A program made the translations under genes and the position numbers. DNA of 64,000 nt from Eledone cirrhosa (taxonomy: Eukaryota), in the NCBI GenBank assembly GCA_964016885.1, contig OZ024745.1, forward strand, positions 39,928,001 to 39,992,000, read 5' to 3'. The notes beneath the pieces were generated by a model that made no database searches, was not told the DNA's origin, and worked only from the letters and a program-made list of their open reading frames with translations. Each line of letters opens with the position of its first letter. Position 1 is the stretch's first letter. Below are positions 7,888-63,560 of the stretch, one piece after another.

Positions 7888-8170
7888 GTCTGAATCGGTC
7901 ATCAGACAGAGATATTATGGATAACAAATATGAAATGAGATTTAAAATCTGTTAAAAATTGGAAGTGAGGCTGGAAAGTATATATTGCAATAGCAATCTT
8001 TATACTTGTATATATTATTTTTCTTACCCTTCTTTTCTTATCTATATTTCCCGTTATTTTTCCAGCCTCACTTCCAATTTTTTTATCCTTAACTCCCTGT
8101 CTGATGACCGATCCGGACGTTTATTAATATTGTCTGGGATCCAGAAATATCTGGTAATCAGTATACAGCA
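7888..8170. mobile_element. Fold-back element with degenerate hammerhead-like core
   Basis: Inverted arms ~7888-7912/8094-8118 and ~7955-7978/8059-8082. CTGATGA(8101-8107)..GATCCGGAC/GTCTGGGATC..GAAA is present, but stems I and III are imperfect. Confidence 0.5.
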
Positions 8171-8399
8171 ACATTCGACAGCAACATTCGACAGCTAAAA
8201 CGTAAATGTTAATAAGAAAAAAAGATACACCTTATATGTTTTATGAATTGATGTGCAACTGGGAAACTTATACATGTCTCTATCTATGCATCTCTCTATA
8301 CCCTGACTGATTATCTCTTCTTACTCTCATCTAGCCCTACTCTCATGAACGAGCCATTCCGAAAGACGGCAGATCCTGACATGTGCCAGCTGCAGGAGT

Positions 8400-34867: not shown

Positions 34868-34901
34868 CTATAATATATATATAAGAAATGTTTCACGTAT
34901 A
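34058..34901. mobile_element. Doubly nested fold-back element with minus-strand hammerhead
   Basis: Outer arms ~34058-34100/34862-34901; inner arms ~34240-34377/34470-34605. Hammerhead at 34359-34401 (-): CTGACGA T AGCT aata AGCT T GAAA CTAG TA. Same family as 31850-32180. Confidence 0.75.
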
Positions 34902-35009
34902 TTTTTTTTTATTGTTGTTACAATAGGTTTATGTACAATAGTTTATAACTGTACCTATTAATCCGTATGGTGAGCAAATGGGGTCCCACGTGCTGGCCTC
35001 CCCACAGCC

Positions 35010-37294
35010 CGGCGGACTGAATGGAGAAGGCTTTTCCCCGAGGTTGGTAAGGAAGATACGCTGGAAGAGCCATTCCAACTCGCGTGGCAAACACTTACGG
35101 CTGGCCAACTCAGCGCCTAGGTGGTGAATAGGGAGGTAGCTCTAGGGCCAAGGACACCAGAAGTATCGACTGCCAAGGGCACCATCACGAACCTTTTCGA
35201 GCGCGACCAGTACTTGGAGACTTTGGCGTCCTCAGCCCGACGAGCAGCAGTACCTGGGTTAGTCGCACACTGCACTAGGTTGCAGCTGGAGAAAGTGTCA
35301 CTGCAAGAGGCATCCCAGACGAAGGGTTTGCCACCGCGGAACGGGAAGAAAGTCATACTGTCTGGCCTTTTTCTATCCCCTCGGCGCAGCCCTACCAACT
35401 CAAGCTGGGAGGGGAAGCCTGCAGCGCCCAATCCATGCTTAATTGCCTCGTTCAGAGCAGTATGGCGTGGAAGGCGGTCGGCACTGTGGCGACAAAAATG
35501 CTGGTATGAGGCCGAATATGTCCACGATGGATCCACAGCGAAATGTATATGGCTGGCAGATCCGGAGTCCACGTCTTAATGAAACGCCCATGCGCAGGCT
35601 ATCGTTATCCAGCTGCCTGCCAGTGGAGAAGGAGGGCAAGGCTTGGATTCAAGCACCACTGAGGGGTTTGGGAGGTTGCGCGAAAACAGGCAAGGCGGCG
35701 TTGGTCAAGCTGGCGCCTGAGCCTGTCTGAGGCCAGGCTGCACTGGATGGCATCCCACACGCGTTGGGGGGACTTGACGTTAGTAGAGGGAGAAGGAAGA
35801 GGGACGTCTACTAGGCTAAATCCCAGCCTCTTCCACATCTCACAGGCGACCTGACTTTCCTTGAACACAGAGGGTTCTATTGTGTTTTGGAGAACCCTGC
35901 TGACGAGGACGCGGCATGAGGTTACCGATGAAAGAAACGCCGTCAAAGCCAGCGAGATCGGGGACAGGAGGCCAAGGCCGCCATATCTGACAGGTAAAGT
36001 GGCCTGTTGCCATCCAATGTCGTCAAACCTGACGTTGCATAACTTCTCAGCTGCCGCTCGGATACAATTATCGAAATCAGCGAGGAGAGATGCAGGCTGT
36101 AGCACGGAGAGCTGCGAAGGGTGTAGAGGAGCTTCGGCATGGCGAAGCAGTTCCTCTACAGGAAGAGAGCTGGGTGGCCCTCGATCAAGCCCAGTAGGTT
36201 CGTGAGGGTCTAGAGTTTTTGGGAGCCTAGACCTGATGGTGGAGCGGTTGGCCGGCGGGTGGTTCGATGACCCGAGGATGAGGACATCCTCTTTGGCGGT
36301 CAACTGTACCTGGTGGAGGATGGATCGATCGTCCGAAACGGAGACTGCGATGCTCTCAGTATCATGGCTGACATTCACCACCTCCGACTTGGACGAGTTG
36401 ACCTGGAGGCCGATTCCGAACAGGGCAGGAACCATCGATTGAAGGTCATGGCCGACAGTCTCCACGGGCCCACCCATCCTAGCATCATCTAGGTACCAAA
36501 CGTTGAGAGCACCCGTGATACTCCAGGCAATGTGATCTATACCAAGGGAAAACAGGAAGGGGCCCAAATGGTCACTCTGCTGGACCCCACATGCCGTAAA
36601 TATGACCATATCAGCAGAAAGGATCATGCTCGGAGCTCCATATGATTGGTAGGCCAGCGGGTTTGCGAAGTAGGGTCGGCTGCGGCAGGTATCGAGCAGA
36701 TGGTCCTGGGGTATACGGTTAAAGGCATTCCCCATGTCAAGCTTGACAATGAGGTACCTTTAGTCCCTGGATGCCGGTTCCAGTGAGCAGCTATTGAATA
36801 ATTGCCTGGTTGCATGTGCAGCCCCCTCCCAACAACCGGACACGCCTAAACCCAGTTGCACCGGACTGAACTCTTCAACCAGTTCAGTCGTTATGGATCT
36901 GCAGACCACCTTAGCAGCCAGCCACCGGAGGACCTTGCCCACAGCGATGGCACGTATGCCAAACTCTTTCTTCCTGAGAGCGGTCAGACTAGCCGAAAAA
37001 AAAAAGTATCGGGCGTGAGGATCCAGGGCACCATGGATAAGCCTATTGATGAGTGCTACAATTGCACTCAGAAGGCGGCGCCCGGCCTCAACGAGGAGAG
37101 GCGATAGCAACTCCTAGAGGTGGCCTGGTCGGAGAGCATCAGCACGGGCTGCTAGCTGGGAAGGACTTGATAGTAGGCATATCTGCGTTGGAAGTCATAA
37201 GGAGCAGGTGGGGATCGGGTGGGGGTATTTGTCTGAGGTCAGCGGGTGGCTCAAGGTGGTTGAGTCGCAGGGCAGCCTGGAACTCCTCGGTGGG
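35010..37294 (-). pseudogene. CRE ORF, RT and RLE part
   Basis: FFSASLTALRKKEFGIRAIAVG, PVQLGLGVSGCWEGAAHA, KLDMGNAFN, GVQQSDHLGPFLFSL, WYLDDA, QATLPVRYGGLGL; RLE motif RH..E....KRPD..WD; WLFQRI. Stops and frameshifts present. Confidence 0.9.
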
Positions 37295-40200
37295 TTATTT
37301 TGGTGGGCACCCAAATAAAACGGGGCACCCAAATAAAAAACGGGGCACCCAAATAAAAAACGGGGCACCCAAATAATAAACCGGGCAACCAAATAAAAAA
37401 ACGGGGCACCCAAATAAAAAACGGGGCACCCAAATAAAAAACGGGGCACGCAAATAAAAAAACGGGGCACCCAAATAAAAAACGGACCCCCACATAAAAA
37501 AAACGGGGCACCCAAATAAAAAACGGGGCACCCAAATTATAAACGGGGCACCCAAATAAAAAACGGGGCACCCAAATAAAAAACGCGGGCACCCAAATAA
37601 AAAACGGGGCACCCAAATAAAAAACGGGGCACCCAAATAAAACAACGGAGCACCCGAATAAAAAACAGACCCACCCATAAAAAAATGGGGCACCCAAATA
37701 AAACACGGGGCACCCAAATATAAAAACGGGGCACCTAAATAAAAAAACGGACGATCCCCATAAAAAACGGGGCACCCAAATAAAAAATGGACACCCCTAT
37801 AAAATAACGGGGCACCCAAATAAAATACGGGGCACCCAAATAAAAAACAGAACCCAAATAAAAAACGAGGCACCCAAATAAAAAACGGATCCCCCATAAA
37901 AAAACGGGGCACCCAAATAAAAAACGGACAAACCCCCCCCCCCATAAAAAAACGGGGCACCTAAATAAAAAACGGGGCACCCAAATAAAAAACGGTGCAC
38001 CCAAATAAAAAAACGGTGCACCTAAATAAAAAACGGACCCCACATAAAAAAACGGAGCAACAAATAAAAAACGGGGCACCCAAATAAAAAACGGGGCACC
38101 CAAATAAAAAAACGGGAAACAAACATAAAAAAACGGGGCACCCAAATAAAAAACGGGGCACCCAAATAAAAGACGGGGCACCCAAATCAAAAACGGTGCA
38201 CCCAAATAAAAAACGGAGCACCCAAATAAAAAAATGGACAGCCAAATAAAAAACGGGGCACCCAAATAAAAAACGGAGCACCCAAATAAAATACGGATCA
38301 CCAAATAAAGAATGGGGCACCCAAATAAAATACGGGGCACCCAAATAAAAAACGGGTGATCACCATAAAAAAACGGGGCACAGAAATAAAAAACGTGGCA
38401 CACAAATAAAAAATGGGGCACTCGAATTAAAAAAGGGGCACCCTAATAAAAAACGGGGCACCCAAATAAAAACACGGGGCACCCAAATAAAAAACGCCCC
38501 CCCCCATAAACAAACGGGGCACGCAAATAAAAAACGGGGCACCCAAATAAAAAACATGGCACCCAAATAAAAAAGGGGCACCCAAATAAAAAATGGGGCA
38601 CCCAAATAAAAAACGTGGGGCACCCAAATAAAAAACGGCGCACCCAAATAAAAAACGGGGTACCCAAATAAAACAACGGGGCACCCGAATAAAAAACGGA
38701 CCCACACATAAATAAATGGGGCACCCAAATAAAACATGGGGCACCCAAATATAAAAACGGGGCACCCAAATAAAAAACGGGGCACCCAAATAAAAAATAC
38801 GGGACAGCCAAATAAAAAACGGACCCTCCCATAAAAATACGGGGCACCCAAATAAAAAACATGGCACCCAAATAAAAAAAGGGGCACCCAAATAAAAAAT
38901 GGGGCACCCAAATAAAAAACGCGGGGCACCCAAATAAAAAACGGCGCACCCAAATAAAAAACGGGGTACCCAAATAAAACAACGGGGCACCCGAATAAAA
39001 AACGGACCCACACATAAATAAATGGGGCACCCAAATAAAACATGGGGCACCCAAATATAAAAACGGGGCACCCAAATAAAAAACGGGGCACCCAAATAAA
39101 AAATACGGGACAGCCAAATAAAAAACGGACCCTCCCATAAAAATACGGGGCACCCAAATAAAAAACAGGGCACCCAAATAAAAAACGGGGCACCCGAAAA
39201 AAACGGGGCACCCAAAAAAAAAAACGGGGCGCCCAGATAAAAAAAACGGGACACCTAAATAAAAAACGGACGATCCACATAAAAAACGGGGCACCCAAAT
39301 AAAAAAAGGACCCCCCATAAAAAACGGGGCACCCAAATAAAAAAAGGACCCCCCATAAAAAAACGGGGCACCCAAATAAAAGACGGGGCACCCAAATAAA
39401 AAAACGGGGCACCCAAATAAAAAAACGGGGCACCCAAATAAAAAAAGGATCCCCCATAAAAAACGGGGCACCCAAATAAAAAAAGGACCCCCCCATAAAA
39501 AAACGGGGCACCCAAATAAAAGACGGGGCACCCAAATAAAAAAACCGAGCACCCAAATAACAAACAGGGCACCCCAAAAAGATACGGGGCACCCAAATAA
39601 AAAACGGATCCCCATGAAAAAACGGGGCACCCAAATAAAAAAAGGACCCCCCCATAAAAAAACGGGGCACCTAAATAAAGACGGGGCACCCAAATAAAAA
39701 ACGGTGCACCCAAATAAAAGACGGGGCACCCAAATAATAAAACGCTGCACCCAAATAAAAAAACGGGAAACAAACATAAAAAAACGGGGCACCCAAATAA
39801 AATACAGGGCACCCAAATAAAAAAATGGACAGTCAAATAAAAAACGGGGCACCCAAATAAAATACGGGGCACCCAAATAAAAAACGGGTGATCACCATAA
39901 AAAAACGGGGCACAGAAATAAAAAACGTGGCACACTAATAAAAAACGGGGCACTCGAATTAAAAAAGGGGCACCCTAATTTAAAAACGGGGCACCCAAAT
40001 AAAAAAACGGGGCAGCCAAATAAATAACGGGGCACTCCAAAAAAAACGGACCACCCAAGTAAAAAACAGTGCACACAAATAAAAAACGGGGCACCCAAAT
40101 AAAAACACGGGGCACCCAAATAAAAAACGCCCCCCCATAAACAAACGGGGCACGCAAATAAAAAAAGGGGCACACAAATAAAAAAAACGGGCACTCAAAT

Positions 40201-43200
40201 AAAAACGGGGTACCCAAATAAAAAACGGGGCACACAAATAAAAAACATGGCACCCAAATAAAAAACGGGGCACCCAAATAAAAAATGGGGCACTCAAATA
40301 AAAAACGCGGGGCACCCAAATAAAAAAAGGACCTCCCCCATAAAAAAACGGGGCACCTAAATAAAAACGGGGCACCCAAATAAAAAACGGTGCACCCAAA
40401 TAAAAGACGGGGCACCCAAATAATAAAACGGTGCACCTAAATAAAAAACGGACCCCACATAAAAAAACGGGGCACCCAAATAAAAAAACGGGAAACAAAC
40501 ATAAAAAAACGGGGCACCCAAATAAAAAACAGGGCACCCAAATCAAAAACGGTGCACCCAAATAAAAAACGGGGCACCCAAATAAAAAAACGGAACGCCA
40601 CCCCCCCCCCATGAAAAACGGGCCACCCAAATAAAAAACCAGGGCACCCAAATAAAAAAAACGGGGCACCCAAATAAGAAACGGACCCCCCCATAAAAAA
40701 ACGGGGCACCCAAATAAAAGACGGGGCACACTAAAGAAAAATACGGCACCCAAGTAAAAAACGTGGCACCCAAATAAAATAAGCGGGGCACCCAACAAAA
40801 AACGGGGCACCCGAATAAAAAACGGAGCCCCCCCCCCATAAAAAAACGGGACACGCAAATAGAAAACGTAACCCTCCCCCATAAAAAAACCGGGAAACCC
40901 AAATAAAAAACGTGGTACCCAAATAAAAAAACCGTGGCACCCAAATAAAAAAACCGTGGCACCCAAATAAAAAAATTGGCACCCACACAAAAACGGGGCA
41001 CCCGAATAAAAAACGGAAACCCCATAAAAAAACGGGTCACACAAATAGAAAACGTAACCCCCCCCCCATAAAAAAAGGTGGCACCCAAATAAAAAACGGC
41101 GCACTCAAATAAAAGAAAGGGCAACCCCCCAAAAAACGGGGCACCCAAATAAATAACGGAGCACCCAAATAAAAAAACGGGGCACCCAAATAAAAAACGG
41201 TCCAGACTATAAAAAAACGGTGCACCCAAATAAAAAATGGACCCCTCCCCATAAAAAAACGGGGCAACAAAATAAAAAATTGGGTACCCAAATAAAAAAC
41301 GGGGCACCCAAATAAAAAAACGGGGCACCCAAATAAAAAAAGGGGCACCCAAATAATATACGGGGCACGCAAATAAAAAACGGACGATCCCCATAAAAAA
41401 ACGGGGCAGAGAAATGAAAAACGGGGCACACAAATAAAAAACGGGTCACCCAAATAAAAAAAGGGGCAAAAAAATAAAAAACGGGGCAACCCAAATAAAA
41501 AAACCGGGCACCCAAATAAAAAACGGGGCACCCCTTCCAAAAAAACGGGTCACCCAAATAAAAAACGGGGCACCCAAATAAAAAACGGTCGATCCCCATA
41601 AAAAAACCTACCACACAATTAAAAAACAGTGCACCCAAATAAAAAACGGCCCTCCCCATAAAAAGACGTGGCAACTAGATAAAAAACGGGGTACCCAAAT
41701 AAAAAACGGGGCACCCAAATAAAAACACGGGGCACCAAAATAAAAAACAGACGCCCCTATAAATAAGCGAGGTACCCAAATAATAAACAGATACCCCAAT
41801 AAAAAAAACGGGGCACCCAAATAAAAAAAACGAGGCACCCAAATAAAATAACGGGGCACCCAAATAAAGAACGGTCACCCACATAAAAAAAACGGGGCAC
41901 CCAAATAAAAAACGGGGCACCACCCAATTTAAAAAAAGGGCACCCAAATAAAAAACGGGGCACCCAAATTAAAAACGGGGCACCCAGACAAAAAACGGGG
42001 CACGCAATTAAAAAACGCCCCCCCCCCTTTAAAAAGACGCAAATAAAGTACAGAGACCCCCATAAAAAAACGGGGCACCCAAATAAAAAACGGGGCACCC
42101 AAATAATAGAACGGTGCACCTAAATAAAAAACGGACCCCACATAAAAAAACGGGGCACCCAAATAAAAAAACGGGAAACAAACATAAAAAAACGGGGCAC
42201 CCAAATAAAAAACAGGGCACCCAAATCAAAAACGGTGCACCCAAATAAAAAACGGGGCACCCAAATAAAAAAACGGAACGCCAACCCCCCCCCCCCCCAT
42301 AAAAAAACGGGGCACCCAAATAAAAGACGGGGCACACTAAAGAAAAATACGGCACCCAAGTAAAAAACGTGGCACCCAAATAAAAATACGGGGCACCCAA
42401 CAAAAAACGGGGCACCCGAATAAAAAACGGAGCCCCCCCCCCCCATAAAAAAACGGGACACGCAAATAGAAAACGTAACCCTCCCCCATAAAATAACGGG
42501 GCGCCCAAATAAAAAACGGGGCACCCAAATAAAGTAACGGGGCACCCAAACAAAAAACGGGGACACAAATAAAAAACGGACCCCCCCATATAAAAACGCG
42601 CACCTAAATAAAATACGGGGCACCCAAATAAAATAACGAGGCACCCGTATAAAAAACGGAACCCGCCATAAAAAAACGGGGCACCCAAATAGAAAAAGTA
42701 ACCACCCCCATAAAAAACGGGGCTCCCAAATAAAAAACGGGGCACCCAAATAAAAAACAGGGCACCCAAAAAAAACCCGGCACCCAAATAAATAACGGAG
42801 CACCCAAATAAAAAACGGGGCACCCAAATAAAAAATGGACCCCCCATAAAAAAACAGGGCACCCAAATAAAAAACGGGGTTCCCAAATAAAAAACGGGGC
42901 ACCCAAATAAAAACACGGGGCACACAAATAAAAATATGACGCCCCCTATAAATAAGCGAGGTACCCAAATAAAAAACAGACACCCCAATAAAAAAAACGG
43001 GGCACCCGAATAAAAAACACGGCACGCATATAAAAACGGGGCACCCAAATAAAAAAACGGGGCACCCAAATAAAAAACGCCCCCCCCCCCCATAAAACAC
43101 GGCGCACCCAAATAAAGAACGGTGCATCCAAATAAAAAAGCGGGGCACCCAAACAAAAAACGAGGCACCCAAATTAAAAACGGACCCCCACATAAAAAAA

Positions 43201-46200
43201 CGCGGCACACAAATAAAAACGGGGCACCCAGATAAAAACCGGGACACCAAATAAAAAACGGACGGTCCCAATAAAAAACGGGGCACCCAAATAAAAAACG
43301 GGGCACCCAAATAAAAAAACGGGGCACCCAAATATAAAAACGGGGCACCCAAATAATAAACAGACACCCCCATAAAAAAACGGAGCACGCAAATAAAAAA
43401 CGCCCCCCCCCCCATAAAATAACGGGGCACCCAAATAAAAAAGGGACCACCACATAAAAAAACGGTCACACAAATAAAAAATGGGCGCCCAAATAAAAAA
43501 CGGGGCACCCAAATAAAAAAACGGGGCACCTGAATAAAAAACAGGGCACCCCAAAAAAACCCGGCACCCAAATAAATAACGGAGCACCCAAATAAAAAAA
43601 CGGGGCACCCAAATAAAAAATGGACCCCCCATAAAAAAACAGGGCACCCAAATAAAATACGGACCCCTCCCCATAAAAAGACGTGGCAACTAAATAAAAA
43701 ACGGGGTACCCAAATAAAAAACGGGGCACCCAAATAAAAACACGGGGCACCAAAATAAAAAACAGACGCCCCTATAAATAAGTGAGGTACCCAAATAAAA
43801 AACAGACACCCCAATAAAAAAAACGATCACACAAATAAAAAACGGGGCGCCCAAATAAAAAACGGGGCACGCAAATAAAATAACGGGGCACCCAAACAAA
43901 AAACGGGGACACAAATAAAAAACGGACCACCCCCATAAAAAAACGCGCACCTAAATAAAATACGGGGCACCCAAATAAAAAAACGAGGCACCCGTATAAA
44001 AAACGGAACCCTCCATAATAAAACGGGGCACCCAAATAGAAAAAGGAACCACCCCCATAAAAAAACAGGGCTCCCAAATAAAAAACGGGGCACCCAAATA
44101 AAAAACGGGGCACCCAAATAAAAACACGGGGCACCAAAATAAAAAGCAGACGCCCCCTATAAATAAGCGAGGTACCCAAATAAAAAACAGACACCCCAAT
44201 AAAAAAAACGGGGCACCCAAATAAAAACCGAGGCACCCAAATAAAATAACGGGGCACCCAAATAAAAACGGTCACCCAAATAAAAATAACGGGGCACCCA
44301 AATAAAAAACAGGGCACCCAATTAAAAAAAAGGGCACCCAAATAAAAAACGCGGCACCCAAATAAAATAACGGTGCACCCAAACAAAAAACGGGGACACT
44401 AATAAAAAACGGCCCCCCCCATAAAAAAACGCGGACCTAAATAAAATACGGGGCACCCAAATAAAAAAACGAGGTACCCGTATAAATAACGGAACCCTCC
44501 ATAAAAAACGGGGCACCCAAATAGAAAAAGTAACCACCCCCATAAAAAAACGGTGCTCGCAAATAAAAAACGGGGCACCCATATAAAAAAACGGGGCACC
44601 TGAATAAAAAACAGGGCACCCAAAAAAAACCCGGCACCCAAATAAATAACGGAGCACCCAAATAAAAAAACGGGGCACCCAAATAAAAAATGGACCCCCC
44701 ATAAAAAAACAGGGCACCCAAATAAAATACAGACCCCTCCCCATAAAAAGACGTGGCAACTAAATAAAAAACGGGGCACCCAAATAAAAAAACGGGGCAC
44801 CCAAATAATAAACGCCCCCCCCCCCCCATAAAACACGGCGCACCCAAATAAAAAACGGTGCACCCAAATAAAAAACGGACCCCCACATAAAAAAAACGGG
44901 GCACACAAATAAAATACGGACCCCTCCCCATAAAAAGACGTGGCAACTAAATAAAAAACGGGGCACCCAAATAGAAAAAGTAACCACCCCCATAAAAAAA
45001 CGGTGCTCCCAAATAAAAAACGGGGCACCCAAATAAAAAAACGGGGCACCTGAATAAAAAACAGGGCACCCCAAAAAAACCCGGCACCCAAATAAATAAC
45101 GGAGCACCCAAATAAAAAAACGGGGCACCCAAATAAAAAATGGACCCCCCATAAAAAAACAGGGCACCCAAATAAAATACGGACCCCTCCCCATAAAAAG
45201 ACGTGGCAACTAAATAAAAAACGGGGTACCCAAATAAAAAACGGGGCACCCAAATAAAAACACGGGGCACCAAAATAAAAAACAGACGCCCCTATAAATA
45301 AGTGAGGTACCCAAATAAAAAACAGACACCCCAATAAAAAAAACGGGGCACCCAAATAAAAAACGAAGCACCCAAATAAAAAACGGGGCACCCAAATAAA
45401 AAACGGGGCACCCAGATAAAAACGGGGCACCCAAATAAAAAACGGACCAACACATAAAAAAAACGATCACACAAATAAAAAACGGGGCGCCCAAATAAAA
45501 AACGGGGCACCCAAATAAAATAACGGGGCACCCAAACAAAAAACGGGGACACAAATAAAAAACGGACCACCCCCATAAAAAAACGCGCACCTAAATAAAA
45601 TACGGGGCACCCAAATAAAAAAACGAGGCACCCGTATAAAAAACGGAACCCTCCATAAAAAAACGGGGCACCCAAATAGAAAAAAAAACCACAACCATAA
45701 AAAAACGGGGCTCCCAAATAAAAAACGGGGCACCCAAATAAAAAACGGGGCACCCAAATAAAAACACGGGGCACCAAAATAAAAAACGGACGCCCCCTAT
45801 AAATAAGCGAGGTACCCAAATAAAAAACAGACACCCCAATAAAAAAACGGGGCACCCAAATAAAAACCGAGGCACCCAAATAAAATAACGGGCCACCCAA
45901 ATAAAAACGGTCACGCACATAAAAATAACGGGGCACCCAAATAAAAAACGGGGCACCCAATTACAAAAAAGGGCACCCAAATAAAAAAGCGGGGCAACCA
46001 AACAAAAAACGGGGCACCCAAATAAAAAACGGACCCCCACATAAAAAAAACGGGGCACACAAATAAAAAACGGACCCCACATACAAAAAACGGGGCACAC
46101 AAATAAAAACGGGGCACCCAATTAAAATGACAGGGCACCCAAATAAAAAACGGTCCCCCCATAAAAAAACGGTCCCCCCATAAAGAAACGGGGCACCCAA

Positions 46201-49200
46201 ATAAAAAAACGGGGCACCCAAATAAAAAAGGCCCCCCACCCCATGAATAAAACGGGGCACCTAAATAAAAAACGGGGCACCCAAATAAAAAAACGGGGCA
46301 GCCAAATAAAAAACGGGGCACCCAGATAAAAACGGGGCACAAAAAATATAAAACGGACGATCCCCATAAAAAAACAGGGCACCCAAATTAAAAAAAAGGG
46401 GCACACAAATAAAAAACGGGGCACACAAATAAAAAACGGGACACCCAAATAAAAAAACGGGGCACCCAAATAAAAAACGGACCACCACATAAAAAAACCG
46501 GCACACAAATAAAAAACGGGGCGCCCAAATAAAAAACGGGGCACCCACATAAAACGGGGCACCCAAATAAAAAACGGACGATCCCCATAAAAAAACGGGG
46601 CACCCAAATAAAAAAAGGGGGCACACAAATAAAAAACGGGACACCCAAATAAAATAACGGGGCACCCAAATAAAGAACGGTCACCCACATAAAAAAAACG
46701 GGGCACCCAAATAAAAAACGGGGCACCCAATTTAAAAAAAGGGCACCCAAATAAAAAACGGGGCACCCAAATTAAAAACGGGGCACCCAGATAAAAACGG
46801 GGCACCCAAATAAAAAACGGACGATCCCCATAAAAAACGGGGCACCCAAATAAAAAACGGGGCACCCAGACAAAAAACGGGGCACGCAATTAAAAAACGC
46901 CCCCCCCTAAAAAAAACGCAAATAAAGTACAGAGACCCCCATAAACAAACGGGGCACCCACATAAAAAACGGGGCACCCAAATAAAAAAAGGTCACCCAC
47001 ATAAAAAAAACGGGGCACCCACATAAAAAAAACGGGGCACCCGAATAAAAGACGGGGCACCCAAATAAAAAAAGGTCACCCACATAAAAAAAACGGGGCA
47101 CCCACATAAAAAAAACGGGGCACCCGAATAAAAGACGGGGCACCCAATTAAAAAAAAGGGCACCCAAATAAAAAACGGCCCCCCCACATAAAAAAACCTG
47201 GAACCCAAATAAAAAACGGGGCACCCAAATAAAAAACGGGGCATACAAATAAAAAACAGACGCCCCCCATAAAAAAGCGAGGTACCCAAATAAAAAACAG
47301 ACACCCCAATAAAAAAACGGGGCACCCAAATAAAAAACGAGGCACCCAAATAAAAAACGAGGCACCCAAATAAAATAACGGGGCACCCAAATAAAAAACG
47401 GACGATTTCCATAAAAAACGGGTCACACAAATAAAAAAACGGAGCACCCTAATAAAAAAACGGTGCACCCTAATAAAATAACGGGGTACACAAATAAAAA
47501 ACGCGGCACACAAATAAAAAAAAACGGGGCACGCAAATAAAAAACAGCCACGCCCCTAAAAAAACGGAGCACGCAAATAAAAAACGCCCCCCCATAAAAT
47601 AACGGGGCGCCCAAATAAAAAACGGGGCACCCAAATAAAATAACGGGGCACCCAAACAAAAAACGGGGACACAAATAAAAAACGGACCCCCCCCCCATAT
47701 AAAAACGCGCACCTAAATAAAATACGGGGCACCCAAATAAAAAAACGAGGCACCCGTATAAAAAACGGAACCCGCCATAAAAAAACGGGGCTCCCAAATA
47801 GAAAAAGTAACCACCCCCATAAAAAACGGGGCTCCCAAATAAAAAACGGGGCACCCAAATAAAAAACAGGGCACCCAAAAAAAACCCGGCACCCAAATAA
47901 ATAACGGAGCACCCAAATAAAAAACGGGGCACCCAAATAAAAAAATGGACCCCCCATAAAAAAACAGGGCACCCAAATAAAAAACGGACCCCTCCCCATA
48001 AAAAAAAGGGGCAACTAAATAAAAAACGGGGTACCCAAATAAAAAACGGGGCACCCAAATAAAAACACGGGGCACACAAATAAAAATATGACGCCCCCTA
48101 TAAATAAGCGAGGTACCCAAATAAAAAACCGACACCCCAATAAAAAAAACGGGGCACCCGAATAAAAAACACGGCACGCATATAAAAACGGGGCACCCAA
48201 ATAAAAAAACGGGGCACCCAAATAAAGAACGGTGCATCCAAATAAAAAAGCGGGGCACCCAAACAAAAAAGGGGGCACCCAAATTAAAAACGGACCCCCA
48301 CATAAAAAAACGGGGCACACAAATAAAAACGGGGCACCCAGATAAAAAACGGGACACCAAATAAAAAACGGACGGTCCCAATAAAAAACGGGGCACCCAA
48401 ATAAAAAACGGGGCACCCAAATAAAAAAACGGGGCACCCAAATAAAAAAACGGGGCACCCAAATAATAAACAGACACCCCCATAAAAAAACGGAGCACGC
48501 AAATAAAAAACGCCCCCCCCATAAAATAACGGGGCACCCAAATAAAAAAGGGACCACCACATAAAAAGAACGGTCACACAAATAAAAAATGGGCGCCCAA
48601 ATAAAAAACGGGACACCCAAAAAAAATAACGGTGCACCCAAACAAAAAACGGGGACACAAATAAAAAACGCCCCCCCCCCCCATAAAAAAACGCGGACCT
48701 AAATAAAATACGGGGCACCCAAATAAAAAAACGAGGTACCCGTATAAATAACGGAACCCTCCATAAAAAAACGGGGCACCCAAATAGAAAAAGTAACCAC
48801 CCCCATAAAAAAACGGTGCTCGCAAATAAAAAACGGGGCACCCATATAAAAAAACGGGGCACCTGAATAAAAAACAGGGCACCCCAAAAAAACCCGGCAC
48901 CCAAATAAATAACGGAGCACCCAAATAAAAAAACGGGGCACCCAAATAAAAAAACGGGACACCCAAATAATAAACGCCCCCCCCCCCCATAAAACACGGC
49001 GCACCCAAATAAAAAACGGTGCACCCAAATAAAAAAGCGGGGCACCCAAACAAAAAACGGGGCACCCAAATTAAAAACGGACCCCCACATAAAAAAAACG
49101 GGGCACACAAATAAAATACGGACCCCTCCCCATAAAAAGACGTGGCAACTAAATAAAAAACGGGGCACCCAAATAGAAAAAGTAACCACCCCCATAAAAA

Positions 49201-52200
49201 AACGGTGCTCCCAAATAAAAAACGGGGCACCCAAATAAAAAAACGGGGCACCTGAATAAAAAACAGGGCACCCCAAAAAAACCCGGCACCCAAATAAATA
49301 ACGGAGCACCCAAATAAAAAAACGGGGCACCCAAATAAAAAATGGACCCCCCATAAAAAAACAGGGCACCCAAATAAAATACGGACCCCTCCCCATAAAA
49401 AGACGTGGCAACTAAATAAAAAACGGGGTACCCAAATAAAAAACGGGGCACCCAAATAAAAACACGGGGCACCAAAATAAAAAACAGACGCCCCTATAAA
49501 TAAGTGAGGTACCCAAATAAAAAACAGACACCCCAATAAAAAAAACGGGGCACCCAAATAAAAAAACGAAGCACCCAAATAAAAAACGGGGCACCCAAAT
49601 AAAAAACGGGGCACCCAGATAAAAACGGGGCACCCAAATAAAAAACGGACCACCACATAAAAAAAACGATCACACAAATAAAAAAGGGGGCGCCCAAATA
49701 AAAAAACGGGGCACCCAAATAAAATAACGGGGCACCCAAACAAAAAACGGGGACACAAATAAAAAACTGACCACCCCCATAAAAAAACGCGCACCTAAAT
49801 AAAATACGGGGCACCCAAATAAAAAAACGAGGCACCCGTATAAAAAACGGAACCCTCCATAAAAAAACGGGGCACCCAAATAGAAAAAGGAACCACCCCC
49901 ATAAAAAAACGGGGCTCCCAAATAAAAAACGGGGCACCCAAATAAAAAACGGGGCACCCAAATAAAAACACGGGGCACCAAAATAAAAAAACAGACGACC
50001 CCTATAAATAAGCGAGGTACCCAAATAAAAAACAGACACCCCAATAAAAAAAACGGGGCACCCAAATAAAGACCGAGGCACCCAAATAAAATAACGGGGC
50101 ACCCAAATAAAAACGGTCACCCACATAAAAATAACGGGGCACCCAAATAAAAAACGGGGCACCCAATTAAAAAAAAGGGCACCCAAATAAAAAAGCGGGG
50201 CAACCAAACAAAAAACGGGGCACCCAAATAAAAAACGGACCCCCACATAAAAAAAACGGGGCACACAAATAAAATAACGGGGCACCCAAACAAAAAACGG
50301 GGACACAAATAAAAAACGGACCACCCCCATAAAAAAACGCGCACCTAAATAAAATACGGGGCACCCAAATAAAAGAACGAGGCACCCGTATAAAAAACGG
50401 AACCCTCCATAAAAAAACGGGGCACCCAAATAGAAAAAGGAACCACCCCCATAAAAAAACGGGGCTCCCAAATAAAAAACGGGGCACCCAAATAAAAAAC
50501 GGGGCACCCAAATAAAAACACGGGGCACCAAAATAAAAAACAGACGCCCCCTATAAATAAGCGAGGTACCCAAATAAAAAACAGACACCCAAATAAAATA
50601 ACGGGGCACCCAAATAAAAAACGGTCACCCACATAAAAATAACGGGGCACCCAAATAAAAAACGGGGCACCCAATTAAAAAATAGGGCACCCAAATAAAA
50701 AAGCGGGGCAACCAAACAAAAAACGGGGCACCCAAATAAAAAACGGACCCCCACATAAAAAAAACGGGGCACACAAATAAAAAACGGACCCCACATACAA
50801 AAAACGGGGCACACAAATAAAAACGGGGCACCCAATTAAAATAACAGGGCACCCAAATAAAAAACGGTCCCCCCATAAAAAAACGGTCCCCCCATAAAGA
50901 AACGGGGCATCCAAATAAAAAAACGGGGCACCCAAATAAAAAACGGCCCCCCACCCCATGAATAAAACGGGGCACCTAAATAAAAAACGGGGCACCCAAA
51001 TAAAAAACGGGGCAGCCAAATAAAAAACCGGGCACCCAGATAAAAACGGGCACAAAAAATAAAAAACGGACGATCCCCATAAAAAAACAGGGCACCCAAA
51101 TTAAAAAAAAGGGGCACACAAATAAAAAACGGGGCACACAAATAAAAAACGGGACACCCAAATAAAAGAACGGGGCACCCAAATAAAAAACGGACCACCA
51201 CATAAAAAAACCGGCACACAAATAAAAAACGGGGCGCCCAAATAAAAAACGGGGCACCCAGATAAAAACGGGGCACCCAAATAAAAAACGGACGATCCCC
51301 ATAAAAAACGGGGCACCCAAATAAAAAAAGGGGGCACACAAATAAAAAACGGGACACCCAAATAAAAAACGGGGCACCCAAATAAATAAACGGGGCACAA
51401 AAATAAAAAACGGGACACCCAAATAAAAAAACGGGGCACCCAAATAAATAAACGGGGCACCCAAATAAAAAACGGGGCACCCAAATAAAAACACGGGGCA
51501 CCAAAATAAAAAACAGACGCCCCCTATAAATAAGCGAGGTACCCAAATAAAAAACAGACACCCAAATAAAATAACGGGGCACCCAAATAAAAAACGGTCA
51601 CCCACATAAAAATAACGGGGCACCCAAATAAAAAACGGGGCACCCAATTAAAAAATAGGGCACCCAAATAAAAAAGCGGGGCAACCAAACAAAAAACGGG
51701 GCACCCAAATAAAAAACGGACCCCCACATAAAAAAAACGGGGCACACAAATAAAAAACGGACCCCACATACAAAAAACGGGGCACACAAATAAAAACGGG
51801 GCACCCAATTAAAATAACAGGGCACCCAAATAAAAAACGGTCCCCCCATAAAAAAACGGTCCCCCCATAAAGAAACGGGGCATCCAAATAAAAAAACGGG
51901 GCACCCAAATAAAAAACGGCCCCCCACCCCATGAATAAAACGGGGCACCTAAATAAAAAACGGGGCACCCAAATAAAAAACGGGGCAGCCAAATAAAAAA
52001 CCGGGCACCCAGATAAAAACGGGCACAAAAAATAAAAAACGAACGATCCCCATAAAAAAACAGGGCACCCAAATTAAAAAAAAGGGGCACACAAATAAAA
52101 AACGGGACACACAAATAAAAAACGGGACACCCAAATAAAAAACGGGGCACCCAGATAAAAACGGGGCACCCAAATAAAAAACGGACGATCCCCATAAAAA

Positions 52201-55200
52201 ACGGGGCACCCAAATAAAAAAAGGGGGCACACAAATAAAAAACGGGACACCCAAATAAAAAACGGGGCACCCAAATAAATAAACGGGGCACAAAAATAAA
52301 AAACGGGACACCCAAATAAAAAAACGGGGCACCCAAATAAATAAACGGGGCACACAAATAAAAAACGGGGCACCCAAATAAAATAACGGGGCACCCAAAT
52401 AAAAAACGGACCACCACATAAAAAAACGGGCACACAAATAAAAAACGGGGCACCCAAATAAAAAACGGGGCACCCAAACCAAAAACGGGGACACAAATAA
52501 AAAACGGACCCCCCCCCCCCCACCATACAAAAACGCGCACCTAAATAAAATACGGGGCACCCAAATAAAAAAACGAGGCACCCAAATAGAAAACGTAACC
52601 ACCCCCATAAAAAAAGGGTCTCCCAAATAAAAAACGGGGCACCAAATAAAAAAAACGGGGCACCCAAATAAAAAACAGGGCACCCAAACAAAACCCGGCA
52701 CCCAAATAAATAACGGAGCACCCAAATAAAAAAACGGGGCACACAAACAAAAAATGGACGCCCCCCATTAAAAAACAGGGCACCCAATTAAAAAACGGAC
52801 CCCTCCCCATAAAAAGACGGGGCAACTAAATAAAAAACGGGGTACCCAAATAAAAAACGGGGCACCCAAATAAAAAACGTTCCCCCCACATAAAAAAAAC
52901 GGGGCACGCAAATAAAATAACGGGGCAGCCAAATAAAAAACGGTCCCTCGCATAAAAAAAAACCGGGCACCCAAATAAAAAACGGCGCACCCAAATAAAA
53001 GAGCGGGGCAACCAAATAAAAAAACGGGGCACCCAAATAAAAAACGGACCCCCCCCCATAAAACACGGCGCACCCAAATAAAAAACGGTGCACCCAAATA
53101 AAAAAGCGGGCACCCAAACAAAAAACGGGGCACCCAAATAAAAAACGGGGCACCCAAATAAAAACACGGGGCACCAAAATAAAAAACAGACGCCCCCTAT
53201 AAATAAGCGAGGTACCCAAATAAAAAACAGACACCCAAATAAAATAACGGGGCACCCAAATAAAAAACGGTCACCCACATAAAAATAACGGGGCACCCAA
53301 ATAAAAAACGGGGCACCCAATTAAAAAATAGGGCACCCAAATAAAAAAGCGGGGCAACCAAACAAAAAACGGGGCACCCAAATAAAAAACGGACCCCCAC
53401 ATAAAAAAAACGGGGCACACAAATAAAAAACGGACCCCACATACAAAAAACGGGGCACACAAATATAAACGGGGCACCCAATTAAAATAACAGGGCACCC
53501 AAATAAAAAACGGTCCCCCCATAAAAAAACGGTCCCCCCATAAAGAAACGGGGCATCCAAATAAAAAAACGGGGCACCCAAATAAAAAACGGCCCCCCAC
53601 CCCATGAATAAAACGGGGCACCTAAATAAAAAACGGGGCACCCAAATAAAAAACGGGGCAGCCAAATAAAAAACCGGGCACCCAGATAAAAACGGGCACA
53701 AAAAATAAAAAACGGACGATCCCCATAAAAAAACAGGGCACCCAAATTAAAAAAAAGGGGCACACAAATAAAAAACGGGGCACACAAATAAAAAACGGGA
53801 CACCCAAATAAAAGAACGGGGCACCCAAATAAAAAACGGACCACCACATAAAAAAACCGGCACACAAATAAAAAACGGGGCGCCCAAATAAAAAACGGGG
53901 CACCCAGATAAAAACGGGGCACCCAAATAAAAAACGGACGATCCCCATAAAAAACGGGGCACCCAAATAAAAAAAGGGGGCACACAAATAAAAAACGGGA
54001 CACCCAAATAAAAAACGGGACACCCAAATAAATAAACGGGGCACAAAAATAAAAAACGGGACACCCAAATAAAAAAACGGGGCACCCAAATAAATAAACG
54101 GGGCACACAAATAAAAAACGGGGCACCCAAATAAAATAACGGGGCACCCAAATAAAAAACGGACCACCACATAAAAAAACGGGCACACAAATAAAAAACG
54201 GGGCACCCAAATAAAAAACGGGGCACCCAAACCAAAAACGGGGACACAAATAAAAAACGGACCCCCCCCCCACCATAAAAAAACGCGCACCTAAATAAAA
54301 TACGGGGCACCCAAATAAAAAAACGAGGCACCCAAATAGAAAACGTAACCACCCCCATAAAAAAAGGGTCTCCCAAATAAAAAACGGGGCACCAAATAAA
54401 AAAAACGGGGCACCCAAATAAAAAACAGGGCACCCAAACAAAACCCGGCACCCAAATAAATAACGGAGCACCCAAATAAAAAAACGGGGCACACAAACAA
54501 AAAATGGACGCCCCCCATTAAAAAACAGGGCACCCAATTAAAAAACGGACCCCTCCCCATAAAAAGACGGGGCAACTAAATAAAAAACGGGGTACCCAAA
54601 TAAAAAACGGGGCACCCAAATAAAAAACGTTCCCCCCACATAAAAAAAACGGGGCACGCAAATAAAATAACGGGGCAGCCAAATAAAAAACGGTCCCTCG
54701 CATAAAAAAAAACCGGGCACCCAAATAAAAAACGGCGCACCCAAATAAAAGAGCGGGGCAACCAAATAAAAAAACGGGGCACCCAAATAAAAAACGGACC
54801 CCCCCCCCCCATAAAACACGGCGCACCCAAATAAAAAACGGTGCACCCAAATAAAAAAGCGGGCACCCAAACAAAAAACGGGGCACCCAAATAAAAAAAC
54901 GGACCCCCACATAAAAAAAACGGGGCACACAAATTAAAACGGGGCACCCAGATAAAAAACGGGACACCCAAATAAAAAACGGACGGTCCCCATAAAAAAA
55001 CGGGGCACGCAAACAAAAAACAGGCACCCCCATAAAAAAACGGGCACCCAAATAAAATAACGGGGCACCCAAATAAAAAACGGACCTCCACATAAAAAAA
55101 ACGGGGCACACAAATAAAAAACAGGGCACCCATATAAAAAACGGGGCACCCTAATAAAATAACGGGGCACCCAAACAAAAAACGGGGCACACAAATAAAA

Positions 55201-55744
55201 AACGGCCCCCCCTCCACCACCATAAAAAAACGGGCACCTAAATAAAATACGGGGCACCCAAATAAAAAAACGAGGCACCCACACAAAAACGGGGCACCCG
55301 AATAAAAAACGGAACCCCCCATAAAAAACGGGGCACCCAAATAGAAAACGTAACCACCCCCACAAAAAAACGGGGCACCCAAATAAAAAACGGGGCACCC
55401 AAATAAAAAAAACGGGGCACCCAAATAAAAAACAGGGCACCCCCCAAAAAACGGGGCACCCAAATAAATAACGGAGCACCCAAATAAAAAAACGGACCCC
55501 CCCATAAAAAAACAGGGCACCCAAATAAAAAACGGACCCCTCCCCATAAAAAAACAGGGCACCCAAATAAAAAACGGACTCCCACATAAAAAAAAACGGG
55601 CCACCCAAATAAAAAACGGGGTACCCAAGTAAAAGACGGGGCACCCAAATAAAAAAACGGGGCACCTAAATTTAAACGGACGCCCCCCCCCCCCCCCTAA
55701 AAAAACGGGGCACCCAAATAAAAAACGGGGCGCCCAAATAAACC
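37295..55744. repeat. Satellite/minisatellite array, consensus 20-bp monomer CGGGGCACCCAAATAAAAAA, roughly 900 head-to-tail units
   Basis: Seen directly (e.g. exact 20-bp period at 37321-37360). Single orientation throughout, many variant monomers, higher-order duplications. The unit count is an estimate from length divided by ~20.5. Confidence 0.97.
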
Positions 55745-56410
55745 ACGCATGGCGATGGCCTCAGGGGAGGAGGATTAGTGACACCCAAGAGCAGAGTTTG
55801 TGCGTCTTTTGTCACGCTTTGAATGGGGGTTTGTCCAAGGACGAATCATTGGCCTTGACAAAGGCTCCTGTCGACAGCCCGTCTCGATCAGCTCCAGAGG
55901 TGGGGACGCCGAGGGTGAGTGGGACGAAATAGAAGAGGCGCTCCAGTCGCTGGCTCGCTCGGAGTCCAGAACACTCTCTATCGAGGAAATGGGGTATTGG
56001 CTACCGGCACCCTGTCCGCTCTTGGGATCCTGAGCGGAATCTTCTCGAACCGCCTGCGCCGAGCGATGTTGACTAGCGAGGGTTTGGATATCAGGAAAGC
56101 TCGCTGTCTCATCTGATGGAGTACCTGACGGCCGTGGATGAGCAGATGAGAGGAAGAGACAGGTTCTGCATCTCCACGCTGCGAGGGCACTAGAAGTTCG
56201 ACCCGTCAAATCAACACATGTCAGGTGGTGGAAGCAGCCGCACCACGACCAGTTCCAGCTCATTTTCCGTCTGTTCGTGGTGCTGCAAGTGCTACAGATG
56301 TCGACTGGTGGGGATGGAGAATGGGGCGTGGATCCGGGGACCGGTTCACAAAGTGGTATCAGGGGTGAGTGACTGGTTCTCACCAGCCTAGGTGCTAGGC
56401 ACAACTGCAT
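55745..56410 (-). pseudogene. CRE ORF N-terminal part with PHD-like finger
   Basis: CSTC..WSWCGCFHHLTCV..WRCRTC (degenerate C4HC3), followed by KIPLRIPRADRVPVA..SIESVL..W, as expected upstream of a CRE RT. Confidence 0.75.
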
Positions 56411-57689
56411 GTGGGTGGAAGGGAACGTGTTGGTATGAGTGAGGACTCATAGCTCACCTACATCAGATATGGAGGCGACAGAAGACAAGATAATATAGAA
56501 GCGGGGTTGCCTGGAGGGGGACACACACGAAAGTAGGTTAGAAAATAAATAAATAAATGAATGGATGAATGTACAAAAAGAAAACGGGTTTGTTCCCAGC
56601 GAAATGACCCAAATGTCGTTATTTTGTCACTGATTCTGCAGATGGCTTCCTCCTGTTACTGTTGGTGGTGGTGATCGTATAATTAGTATAGATTGTTTCA
56701 AAAGAATATTTGGTGTCGGAATTGGGGAGATTTGCATGGAATAATAAAACCCACGTGACATAAAACAGCAACGCATTTTCAACTCTCTTTTAGACATACA
56801 TCCGTTCACTCCGTTCATTGGGTCATCCAAATCTATATATTTTATTTTTTATATCATATACTATATTTCAATGGAGATGCACTTGCCATGCTGTCAGGAT
56901 ATATAGCAACAAATCTTATTGTTTTAAGATGATCATATGTTTACTTGAAACAGCTAAACTATATTGTCCACTGGAAATTGAAAGTGTATGTTTCAGTGGT
57001 TTAACATTTGATATAAAACGAGTCATCAACTGGATTGCTTTTAATTCTCGTTTAAATGTTAATATCAACTGCTTAACTTTCACAAATTTGCCATGACAGT
57101 AGTTGACAAATGTCACTATGATTGAATTAATTATTAATTAGGAGCATCGGTTTGCATAAATGATGAATTCTATTAAATCATTTCAGTAGTCTAAGCAATA
57201 TACGTTTTGACGAGGTTATATGATATACCACACAATGAACTTATACGTTAAAGCCGGTGTACCATGTGCAAATCTACTAATATTAAATTAAAATTAAATA
57301 CTACCACTAACCGTAAACACACACAAGGATGTATTTCTAGAATGTGTTCCGAATTCCTGTAAGATTTCAAATGCAATCGACATAAAACGTATACCTGTGT
57401 TCAAAGTAAAATTGTTAATAACGCACTATTATTAAGAACTTTATTGTCAGGTCACTCTTGAGGGCTACTGGTAACATGTAAACCAGTACAACCTGTCGCA
57501 TGGTCGGATTGTCGGCGACTAAACTGGCAACCCCACCAAGTTTACTTGGTGAGGAGGGTGATTTTGGATACCCTGCAGGACAAAAAACAAAACATGACAA
57601 AGGGCGGAAGAACTCATCCAAAAATGTATAAAAATGTATCTAAACATCTACATATGTTTGTGTATGTATATGCGTGTGTATATATGCCT

Positions 57690-61919: not shown

Positions 61920-62604
61920 GAAAGGATAAAAAGGACGATTGTTTATTCCTTCATTGCATTTGTTGATAGGTGACGCGCGTTTCGCCACTGATCAGCTCAA
62001 GGTTCGATCTATATCGATCCTACCCGACTCAATAATCGGCAGCTCGACGGACCCTCTTAAAATGCTATAAGAAAATGAAATACATGCTATGTGGTAAAGT
62101 CAGAGTTTCAAGAGTTTGACAAAATGAGATGTTTTGATTGGTGAGAAGGATCAAGGCGATGTAGAAGGTGTTTTACATATATACATACACATACATACAC
62201 ATGGGTATGGGCACATGGACTCACACTCATGTATGCAAGATATACACATACACACTCGCACACACGTATACTCACACATATATATATATTCACATATATA
62301 TATATATATACACATACATGTACCGACAACACACACATACACGCACATATACACATACATGCACATATATGAGCTCACCTACACATCCGGTCAGATTTAC
62401 CCATATACATATATGTAGACGTACACATACACACACATACATACACATACATATATACACACACATACACATATGCATACACATACACATAGGCATACAC
62501 ATACACATATATATATATACACAGATATATATATACACACACATAGACATATGTATATACATGTGTTCACATACACACACACATACAGATAAATTTGCGT
62601 ACAT

Positions 62605-63396
62605 CGTAATGTCCAATTGGACTAATCGAACATTCGACTTAGTTTCAATGGCACAAAGCCAGTCTATTACCTCCTTTATACAAGACCATAGGCTGAGTTT
62701 AGTTCTAATCTTAAGTTCAGGTAATATTCGGTCAATGATTGATTTGCTAAGTCTACCAAGGTCCGATTTGGAGGGGGCTATGAGCCTGACCGGTAGTTTT
62801 GACTGGAAGTCCGGTTTATGGTCTTTAATGGATATTCTCGGTGTCCTAGGGTTGTAAGGAAAGGTCCTGTCGTCAATACTCAGTTCGGTCATTATTGATT
62901 TCGCCTGTTTATTTATGTGTGCTAGGTTTTCTCGTGTTGATGTTTTGTATATTTTAGAGATTTCGTTTGTAATCCATTTGTTGTAGGTTTTGTACTCTAA
63001 GTTATATAGGTTTCCAGTTTTATCCGCTGGTACAATAATCCCAGTGCTATTCTTGATTTTTTTAAAGGTAGAGGCGAGTCCGGACAGGAATGCACTTCTG
63101 TCAGGGTTTCGCGGTGGTTTCCTGAATCTAATTTTCAGGATCACGGTAATGATCCTGCTCTCAAATTCTTCAAGGAGTGGGTTGTGCGGTGGGATTTTCG
63201 TTGATTTGAAAAGTCTTTTTATGTGGTTGGTGGGATTGTTAATTGATCCCGGGGCCTTCCTGTTGTTGTAGTGGTAGGCCCTCCAACGGATCCTTCTGAT
63301 GACATTGTTTGTCTGCTTTAGTAATAGGTCCATGTAGACATCTTCAGAAGGCAAAGGAATGTCCTTTAGGGAGGAAGTGCTGTAGAACAATTCCAT
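62605..63396 (-). pseudogene. Penelope-like element RT, N-terminal part (Naiad-like), truncated at RT motif A
   Basis: Uninterrupted frame SLKDIPLPS..IRRIRWRA..FKS..PP..FE..VPADKTGN.Y..ISIKDHKPDF..RLIAPSKSDLGRLSK..W..VIDW..QLDI, after which it runs into inverted low-complexity sequence. Confidence 0.85.
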
Positions 63397-63560
63397 GGTG
63401 TTCCGTGTAAGCGCTCGACAAATCGACTGTATTATATACCCCCCACCCCCCACCCCCCGTCTGCCTACCATATAACACACCGTAACCTCTAATCATGTAA
63501 TCATATTGCCGAACATATTACCCCAGCACCACCACCATCACCATGTCCACAACACACATC

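What the first reader, a model, noticed from the sequence alone, without database searches (positions are those of the whole stretch)
37290..55746. 18.4-kb unidirectional 20-mer array sits inside a CRE retrotransposon ORF, apparently replacing ~25 codons, with no target-site duplication
Seen: collinear CRE coding remnants on both sides (minus strand ..SSSPEAIAMR | array | PTEEFQAALRLNH..), no flanking direct repeat, and no array monomers elsewhere in the window. Inference: CRE proteins normally carry a V..KL..GD..GA.R.L.S.D-like stretch between those two motifs, so about 75-90 bp appear lost. That points to the array arriving at a resected break (capture of satellite or extrachromosomal circular DNA, rolling-circle or RT-templated synthesis) rather than ordinary transposition or slippage of CRE sequence. 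The host element bounds the age of a complex satellite block.
Basis: partly seen in the sequence, partly recalled or inferred. Interest (0 to 1): 0.8.

Follow-up and report, generated by a model that had tools for sequence, protein, structure and literature searches.

The report
Satellite seed patched into broken retrotransposon
An 18-kb run of a 20-base repeat splits one old retrotransposon copy, with 85 host bases gone and no flanking duplication; it is one of at least 18 such arrays in this genome and was likely planted as a short seed during DNA-break repair and then likely grew in place, a known way for satellite DNA to spread.

Summary
Observation confirmed and sharpened. The array (37305-55744, about 900 monomers, one direction) splits a single non-LTR retrotransposon copy whose own 6-bp target-site duplication survives. 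24 of 29 other copies carry 83-85 bp where the array sits, 0 of 29 carry the monomer. The left junction has an 8-nt insert that is an inverted copy of the monomer. The same satellite forms at least 18 loci on 10 contigs (1.5 to >400 kb), with no shared ends. Two more arrays split other repeat families the same way (73 and about 35-41 bp lost, no duplication, 5-6 bp microhomology). The 18.4 kb probably did not arrive at once: 46% copies earlier stretches at 94-99% identity, a private variant has 10 of 10 genome hits inside this array, and no donor was found. Best reading (0.68): a seed of a few kb joined into a double-strand break by microhomology/template-switch repair (polymerase-theta-like footprint), then local kb-scale duplication. 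This works like Drosophila Rsp-like spread and the human de novo alpha-satellite insertion: new member of a known kind. No independent reads cover the junctions. The host is old, so it bounds the age only loosely.

The parts
34896..34901 (.). Left copy of the host element's 6-bp target-site duplication
   Evidence: identical to 56676-56681, at the tail boundary
34902..34910 (-). A-tail of the host element
   Evidence: sequence
34911..37296 (-). 3' part of the host non-LTR retrotransposon: decayed RT and C-terminal restriction-like endonuclease region
   Evidence: RVT_1 E 1.5e-5; 80-86% identity to 29 copies; motifs
37297..37304 (.). 8-nt junction insert; 37295-37305 is an inverted copy (10 of 11) of 37308-37318, a fold-back of the monomer
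   Evidence: the only exact genome match is this site; 3.2% of background 8-mers come as close to the monomer
37305..55744 (+). Satellite array, 20-bp monomer (example 37322-37341) mixed with a C-run variant, one direction, about 900 units
44840..46109 (+). Internal duplication, 97.8% identical to 49042-50315
50451..51514 (+). Young internal duplication, 99.1% identical to 53098-54160
52097..53145 (+). Young internal duplication, 98.9% identical to 53851-54898
55740..55747 (.). Right junction: 3 bases shared by monomer and host in register, preceded by 2 bases that fit neither
55745..56675 (-). 5' part of the same host copy, 5'-truncated at 56675
56676..56681 (.). Right copy of the host element's target-site duplication

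Best explanation
The array replaces 85 bases of one old retrotransposon copy and likely began as a seed of a few kilobases, taken from another array of the same satellite and likely joined into a double-strand break by microhomology-guided repair, after which it likely grew in place by repeated kilobase duplications. Shown: single host copy, 85-bp loss, no duplication, inverted 8-nt junction insert, at least 18 loci of the satellite, the same footprint at two more loci, nested internal duplications of different ages, no donor among the arrays sampled. Inferred: that the break ends were trimmed by tens of bases and joined by a polymerase-theta-type pathway (short microhomology, templated inverted inserts); that the seed was 2-4 kb (upper bound about 10 kb). 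Whether the seed was a free fragment (linear or opened circle) or was copied by template switching cannot be told from sequence.
For: Empty site from paralogues: 85 bp in 22 of 29, 83-85 in 24 of 29. One host copy: 6-bp duplication at both ends of the element; distances of left and right halves to other copies correlate, rho 0.65, n=23. Same footprint elsewhere: C10:26,415,534-26,423,983, 19 of 19 host copies bridge, 73 bp lost in 18 and 72 in 1, 6-bp microhomology; C2:114,610,609-114,649,037, 11 of 14 copies fit the bridging pattern, about 35-41 bp lost, 5-bp microhomology; C5:115.266 Mb right junction overlaps its host family by 6 bp and about 40 bp of that element's end is missing in comparison with 14 of 14 copies. 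Random joins give 5 bp or more in 0.3-1.3% and 6 bp or more in 0.1-0.4% of cases. Templated inverted inserts: this left junction, and an 18-nt inverted copy of host DNA at a duplication junction repeated 4 times at C5:46.85-46.87 Mb. Growth in place: private 24-mer 10 of 10 genome hits in this array, from 37,744 to 53,931; longest exact match to 16 other array groups 68 bp against 553 bp within; no 70-mer share with 18 other sets at three decimals; 8,469 bp copy an earlier stretch at 94% or more over 250 bp or more; markers recur 8-13 times, commonest spacing 1.6-1.7 kb; short arrays show almost no internal copies; at C8:30.87, C6:49.66, C5:46.85 and C3:133.56 Mb short blocks were amplified together with host DNA. 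A young group (C5:46-47, C6:83, C134, C1:290) shares 14-43% of 70-mers and exact runs up to 239 bp across contigs, so blocks do move.
Against: The window's own junction microhomologies are short (2 bp left, an imperfect 3 bp right) and within chance; the case for microhomology rests on other loci, and there I judged overlap against the best-fitting monomer variant. The fold-back has one mismatch and a 2-nt loop, so it is not a clean snap-back, and it could be the stub of an older internal inversion, which other arrays have. The fourth array tested (C5:115) has non-collinear flanks (0 of 19 and 0 of 14 copies bridge). A second variant was not private: 12 of 32 hits here and 13 in C5:46.87-46.90, in different contexts. 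The large arrays were sampled, not read whole, so a donor may hide in unread or unassembled DNA. No read covers either junction. Duplications could be unequal exchange rather than end joining.
Confidence: 0.68

Rival explanations
1. The whole or most of the 18.4 kb arrived at once, as a captured fragment or a rolling-circle copy of a donor that is now lost or unassembled.
For: De novo insertion of 50-300 kb of alpha satellite with a deletion and no duplication is documented (PMC8662618, passages). About 10 kb of the array has no earlier copy at 94% or more.
Against: Duplications span 94-99% identity; if all predate insertion, the donor should be nearly identical, yet the private 24-mer has no hit outside and top hits to other arrays are 85-92%. 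Duplication offsets are irregular, not one fixed circle length.
Confidence: 0.12
2. A satellite transcript was reverse-transcribed into a break (endonuclease-independent retroposition), then expanded.
For: Such events leave deletions and no duplication (recalled). The genome holds many RT-encoding elements.
Against: No poly-A tail on either strand at the array ends seen; ends fall at many monomer phases; the inverted inserts fit DNA template switching. No RNA evidence was sought.
Confidence: 0.08
3. The array came in a transposon (Helentron, MITE or foldback type), or inserted cleanly, and a later deletion removed the ends and 85 host bases.
For: Helentron-borne satellite-like arrays are reported in oyster (PMC7492417, search listing only). 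The two ends of this array look loosely like a 16-bp inverted repeat (13 of 16, by eye).
Against: The left-end motif is not shared by any other array end (and ends); that likeness is explained by the fold-back plus host bases. Flanks of different arrays share only common interspersed repeats. Three independent loci would each need a secondary deletion of 35-85 bp taking both ends.
Confidence: 0.07
4. Assembly artefact: satellite reads joined into the element.
For: No independent read crosses the junctions.
Against: No gap in the window; the host's target-site duplication pairs the two halves; the array has private variants along its length; two other loci show the same biological footprint.
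Confidence: 0.04
5. The array grew out of the retrotransposon's own sequence by slippage.
For: 8 of 29 copies have a 9-base match to the monomer about 35 bp right of the site.
Against: 0 of 29 hold the monomer core at the site; the match is not at a junction; the satellite sits in unrelated hosts at 17 other loci.
Confidence: 0.01

Closest known systems
Rsp-like satellite spreading on the Drosophila simulans/mauritiana X (PMC7403614; passages)
   Same: New clusters with 4-7 bp microhomology at junctions, 2-36 bp deletions, complex second junctions, later local expansion; MMEJ, MMBIR/FoSTeS and eccDNA proposed.
   Different: Rsp-like enters an existing satellite (1.688) and reuses junctions. 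Here the hosts are unrelated interspersed repeats, minisatellites and unique DNA, each junction differs, and arrays reach tens to hundreds of kb.
De novo D18Z1 alpha-satellite insertion at human 15q26 (PMC8662618; passages)
   Same: Satellite block replaces target DNA, no target-site duplication, 4-bp ambiguous junction, double-strand break inferred.
   Different: One event, 50-300 kb at once from an identified donor, 2,851 bp deleted. Here repeated events, 35-85 bp deleted, no donor found, growth after arrival.
Cast1-9 euchromatic satellites of Tribolium castaneum (10.1101/2023.04.24.538079; passages)
   Same: Arrays dispersed over chromosomes, no favoured monomer phase at ends, A/T-rich microhomology, bursts of spread.
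   Different: eccDNA was shown there by 2D gels and is untested here; in the passages read no empty-site deletions were measured.
Polymerase-theta-mediated / synthesis-dependent end joining (PMC5728401 and PMC13031928; passages)
   Same: Small deletions, microhomology, short templated inserts that form inverted repeats; the same marks at tandem-duplication junctions.
   Different: Those are induced or mutant-accumulated events with genetic support; here only fossil junctions, enzyme unproven.

Membership tests
Dispersed satellite spread by repair-mediated insertion (Rsp-like type) | Same satellite at many unlinked loci | tested here: met
   at least 18 loci on 10 contigs
Dispersed satellite spread by repair-mediated insertion (Rsp-like type) | Host collinear across the array, bases lost, no target-site duplication | tested here: met
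   3 of 4 arrays tested; the fourth has non-collinear flanks
Dispersed satellite spread by repair-mediated insertion (Rsp-like type) | Microhomology at junctions | tested here: met
   5-6 bp at 3 of 7 junctions with known host; the window's own two are within chance
Dispersed satellite spread by repair-mediated insertion (Rsp-like type) | Satellite present on extrachromosomal circles | not testable with these tools
   needs 2D gel or circle sequencing
Polymerase-theta-type end joining | Short templated inserts copying nearby DNA | tested here: inconclusive
   8-nt insert with one mismatch here (3.2% by chance); clear 18-nt case at C5:46.85 Mb, but at a duplication junction
Polymerase-theta-type end joining | Dependence on the enzyme | not testable with these tools
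   needs genetics
Transposon-borne satellite (Helentron, MITE, foldback) | Shared non-satellite ends or terminal repeats, target-site duplication | tested here: not met
   features of these families are recalled
Target-primed retroposed insert | Poly-A tail and target-site duplication | tested here: not met
   array ends; junctions
Host: RLE-encoding non-LTR retrotransposon | One frame with RT and C-terminal zinc knuckle plus restriction-like endonuclease; A-tail; target-site duplication | tested here: met
   RVT_1; knuckle and endonuclease motifs read by eye in L029 and the window (motif forms recalled, no profile hit); tail and duplication; class described in PMC4640811 (passages)
Host: CRE clade | RT phylogeny with named CRE, R2, R4, NeSL, HERO references | not tested

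The most novel reading that the evidence does not exclude
One repair pathway both plants and grows these arrays: the 20-mer is a protein-free mobile element whose lopsided, G-run-rich, near-palindromic monomer provokes fork breaks and fold-backs, and polymerase-theta-type joining then seeds 1-3 kb pieces into unrelated breaks (35-85 bp lost) and writes the kilobase tandem duplications that enlarge them. The genome holds the whole life cycle, from 1.5-kb seeds to >400-kb blocks, with empty sites readable from repeat paralogues.
Probability: 0.3. Interest if true: 0.7.

Novelty: new member of a known kind. Interest (0 to 1): 0.42.

Why it matters
How a satellite founds an array at a new, non-homologous site is still argued (circles, gene conversion, transposons, RT). 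The empty site is usually unknown. Here arrays landed in high-copy repeats, so paralogues give the pre-insertion sequence base by base at three loci, and they agree: tens of bases lost, no duplication, short microhomology. With arrays of all sizes and ages in one genome, seeding and growth can be separated and tested. The locus itself has no sign of function.

Tried and rejected
Giant element with inverted satellite arms: the plus and minus arrays on C1 are parts of compound satellite blocks, with other satellites between them. Terminal inverted repeat: not shared (besides this site on both strands it listed one 1-mismatch site on C6 that I did not inspect). Donor search: none among 16-18 array groups and 7 further groups; C5:46.87-46.90 looked like a sister through one variant, but the contexts differ. 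Reads: only three RAD runs were listed; depth is zero at both junctions. Empty-site test at C5:115 gave no bridge. At C6:49.66 the flank is an inverted retroelement piece abutting the array, order of events unclear. A DNA search with array sequence scored 1 of 1087 candidates, so arrays were listed with rare-variant patterns instead; the count is a lower bound. A first megablast self-comparison printed nothing and was replaced. Earlier findings: none. Paper searches: octopus or cephalopod with satellite terms listed no paper on such an array (the animal group is my guess from a recalled SINE likeness, untested); CRE clade search 0 papers; the library lacks most subscription journals.
Full report
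Setting. The window is G000:C5:39,928,001-39,992,000 of a 3.0-Gb genome, rich in microsatellites and decayed retroelements. The organism was not identified.

Observation. TRF reports one array of period 20 with 905.6 copies. It runs in one direction with no foreign interruption, and the monomer is absent from the rest of the window. The left flank found 1983 candidates, 40 scored; I took the top 30 loci, 29 besides the window. Both flanks align collinearly to them. Between the junction points 22 of 29 have 85 bp, 2 have 83-84, 4 have private deletions and 1 is truncated. None of 29 holds the monomer core there. So 85 bp, about 28 codons upstream of the RT, are replaced, without duplication.

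One host copy. The element has an A-tail at 34902-34910 and is 5'-truncated at 56675; the same 6 bases flank both ends (34896-34901, 56676-56681). Distances of the two halves to other copies correlate (rho 0.65, p 0.0009, 23 of 29 copies with enough overlap). This argues against a misjoin or a recombination of two copies. The host has RT and, by eye, a C-terminal zinc knuckle and restriction-like endonuclease, the class described in PMC4640811 (passages). The CRE label was not tested. This copy is 12.1% from the column majority, the others 4.4-8.6%: an old host.

Junctions. Left: host to 37296, then 8 bases, then the monomer; 37295-37305 is an inverted copy of 37308-37318 (10 of 11). The only exact genome match is this site; 3.2% of background 8-mers are as near the monomer. 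Right: three bases shared in register by monomer and host, preceded by two that fit neither. Alone, these overlaps are within chance.

The family. The perfect dimer has 3001 genome hits, 4 in the window. Rare-variant patterns (37, 36 and 32 hits) and searches give at least 18 loci on 10 contigs; C134 may be an alternative version of the C3:179 locus, though the junctions differ. Sizes run from 1.5 kb to over 400 kb by sampling. Ends fall at many monomer phases, in retroelements, other satellites, microsatellites and unique DNA, with no shared motif or tail; flanks share only common repeats.

Empty sites elsewhere. I tested three further arrays whose flanks looked like repeats. C10:26.42 Mb (8.4 kb): 19 of 19 host copies bridge, 73 bp lost in 18 and 72 in 1, a 6-bp overlap at one end and two mismatched bases before a 4-bp in-register match at the other. 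C2:114.61 Mb (38.4 kb): 11 of 14 copies fit the bridging pattern, about 35-41 bp lost, 5-bp overlap left, right end blurred by a SINE. C5:115.27 Mb (1.5 kb): no bridge (0 of 19, 0 of 14), but the right junction overlaps its host by 6 bp and about 40 bp of that element's end are gone. Random joins reach 5 bp in 0.3-1.3% of cases; 3 of 7 junctions do here, of order 1e-4 by hand and soft, because I allowed monomer variants.

Growth in place. A private 24-mer has 10 of 10 genome hits in this array, over 16 kb. The longest exact match to 16 other array groups is 68 bp, within the array 553 bp. 8,469 of 18,440 bp copy an earlier stretch at 94% or more, on a ladder from 99.2% down; top hits to 17 other groups are 85-92%, and 0 hits at 94% and 250 bp in 7 more. 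Markers recur 8-13 times, most often 1.6-1.7 kb apart, with partly different sets left and right of about 41.4 kb: a seed of 2-4 kb is my inference, 10 kb the bound. Against this, a second variant also occurs 13 times in C5:46.87-46.90, in other contexts, and the large arrays were only sampled. At four loci short blocks were amplified with host DNA between them; at C5:46.85 Mb that duplication junction carries an 18-nt inverted copy of host DNA, 4 times. Fold-back inversions occur in the C10, C4:193, C2:156, C3:133 and C1:296 arrays. A young group shares 14-43% of 70-mers across contigs (within-array values for C1:208, C1:290 and C3:179 are inflated by overlapping loci).

Mechanism. Small deletions, microhomology and templated inverted inserts are the described marks of synthesis-dependent, polymerase-theta-type end joining, also at tandem-duplication junctions (PMC5728401, PMC13031928; passages). 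I commit to a seed joined or copied into a break by that kind of repair, then local duplication (0.68). Enzyme, free fragment versus template switch, and seed size are inferred.

Comparison. It works like Rsp-like spread (PMC7403614), the human D18Z1 insertion (PMC8662618) and Tribolium Cast satellites; all read as passages, no supplements seen, and supplements may hold junction tables that bear on novelty. It fails the tests for a transposon-borne or target-primed insert. PMC7492417 was seen as a listing only. Searches listed no paper on this kind of array in cephalopods; that group is a guess.

Limits and verdict. No read covers the junctions. A real, well-resolved case of satellite colonisation: new member of a known kind, interest 0.42, valuable mainly because repeat paralogues supply the empty sites.

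Noticed in passing
G000:C1:208.727-208.823 Mb (L086-L092): Compound block: 35-kb plus-strand 20-mer array, about 7 kb of a 5-bp A-rich microsatellite, then a 10-bp-period satellite with about 1-kb minus-strand 20-mer blocks at orientation switches.
   Followed up: partly
G000:C1:290.39-290.87 Mb (L093-L100, L118-L120, L250): Over 400 kb of mixed satellite: a 66-bp repeat, the 20-mer in both orientations and a related variant with a different core; candidate master or centromere-like block.
   Followed up: partly
G000:C3:179.429-179.474 Mb and C134:17.6-52.5 kb: Two arrays sit in related 22-bp minisatellites with different junctions; one has about 170 bp of 5-bp simple-repeat filler. Echoes Rsp-like entering 1.688, or one is an alternative haplotype.
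   Followed up: partly
G000:C8:30.866-30.876 Mb; C6:49.664-49.713 Mb: Short 20-mer blocks amplified in tandem with SINEs and AT-rich 5-bp repeats, forming new composite macro-repeats.
   Followed up: partly
G000:C2:156.368-156.398 Mb: Array bracketed by an inverted duplication of about 0.8 kb of retroelement DNA, with short fold-back blocks at the ends.
   Followed up: partly
L111:8330-9140 (C6:49.663 Mb): RT remnant with an inverted 5' part and a short duplicated motif at the break, as in twin priming (recalled), abutting the array.
   Followed up: partly
L029:323-3112 minus strand: A family copy with an unbroken 930-aa frame spanning RT and most of the endonuclease region.
   Followed up: partly
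window 55775-55790: Host family has a 9-base match to the monomer about 35 bp right of the junction in 8 of 29 copies; not at a junction, possibly chance.
   Followed up: partly
L086:8665-8685: A stretch that by recall looks like a Tc1/mariner terminal repeat loosely resembles the monomer; origin of the satellite from a transposon end is untested.
   Followed up: no
window 3400-9000 and 62290-63500: Two other decayed retroelements: an RT-bearing LINE (RVT_1) and a frame like Penelope-type elements by recall (no Pfam hit).
   Followed up: no
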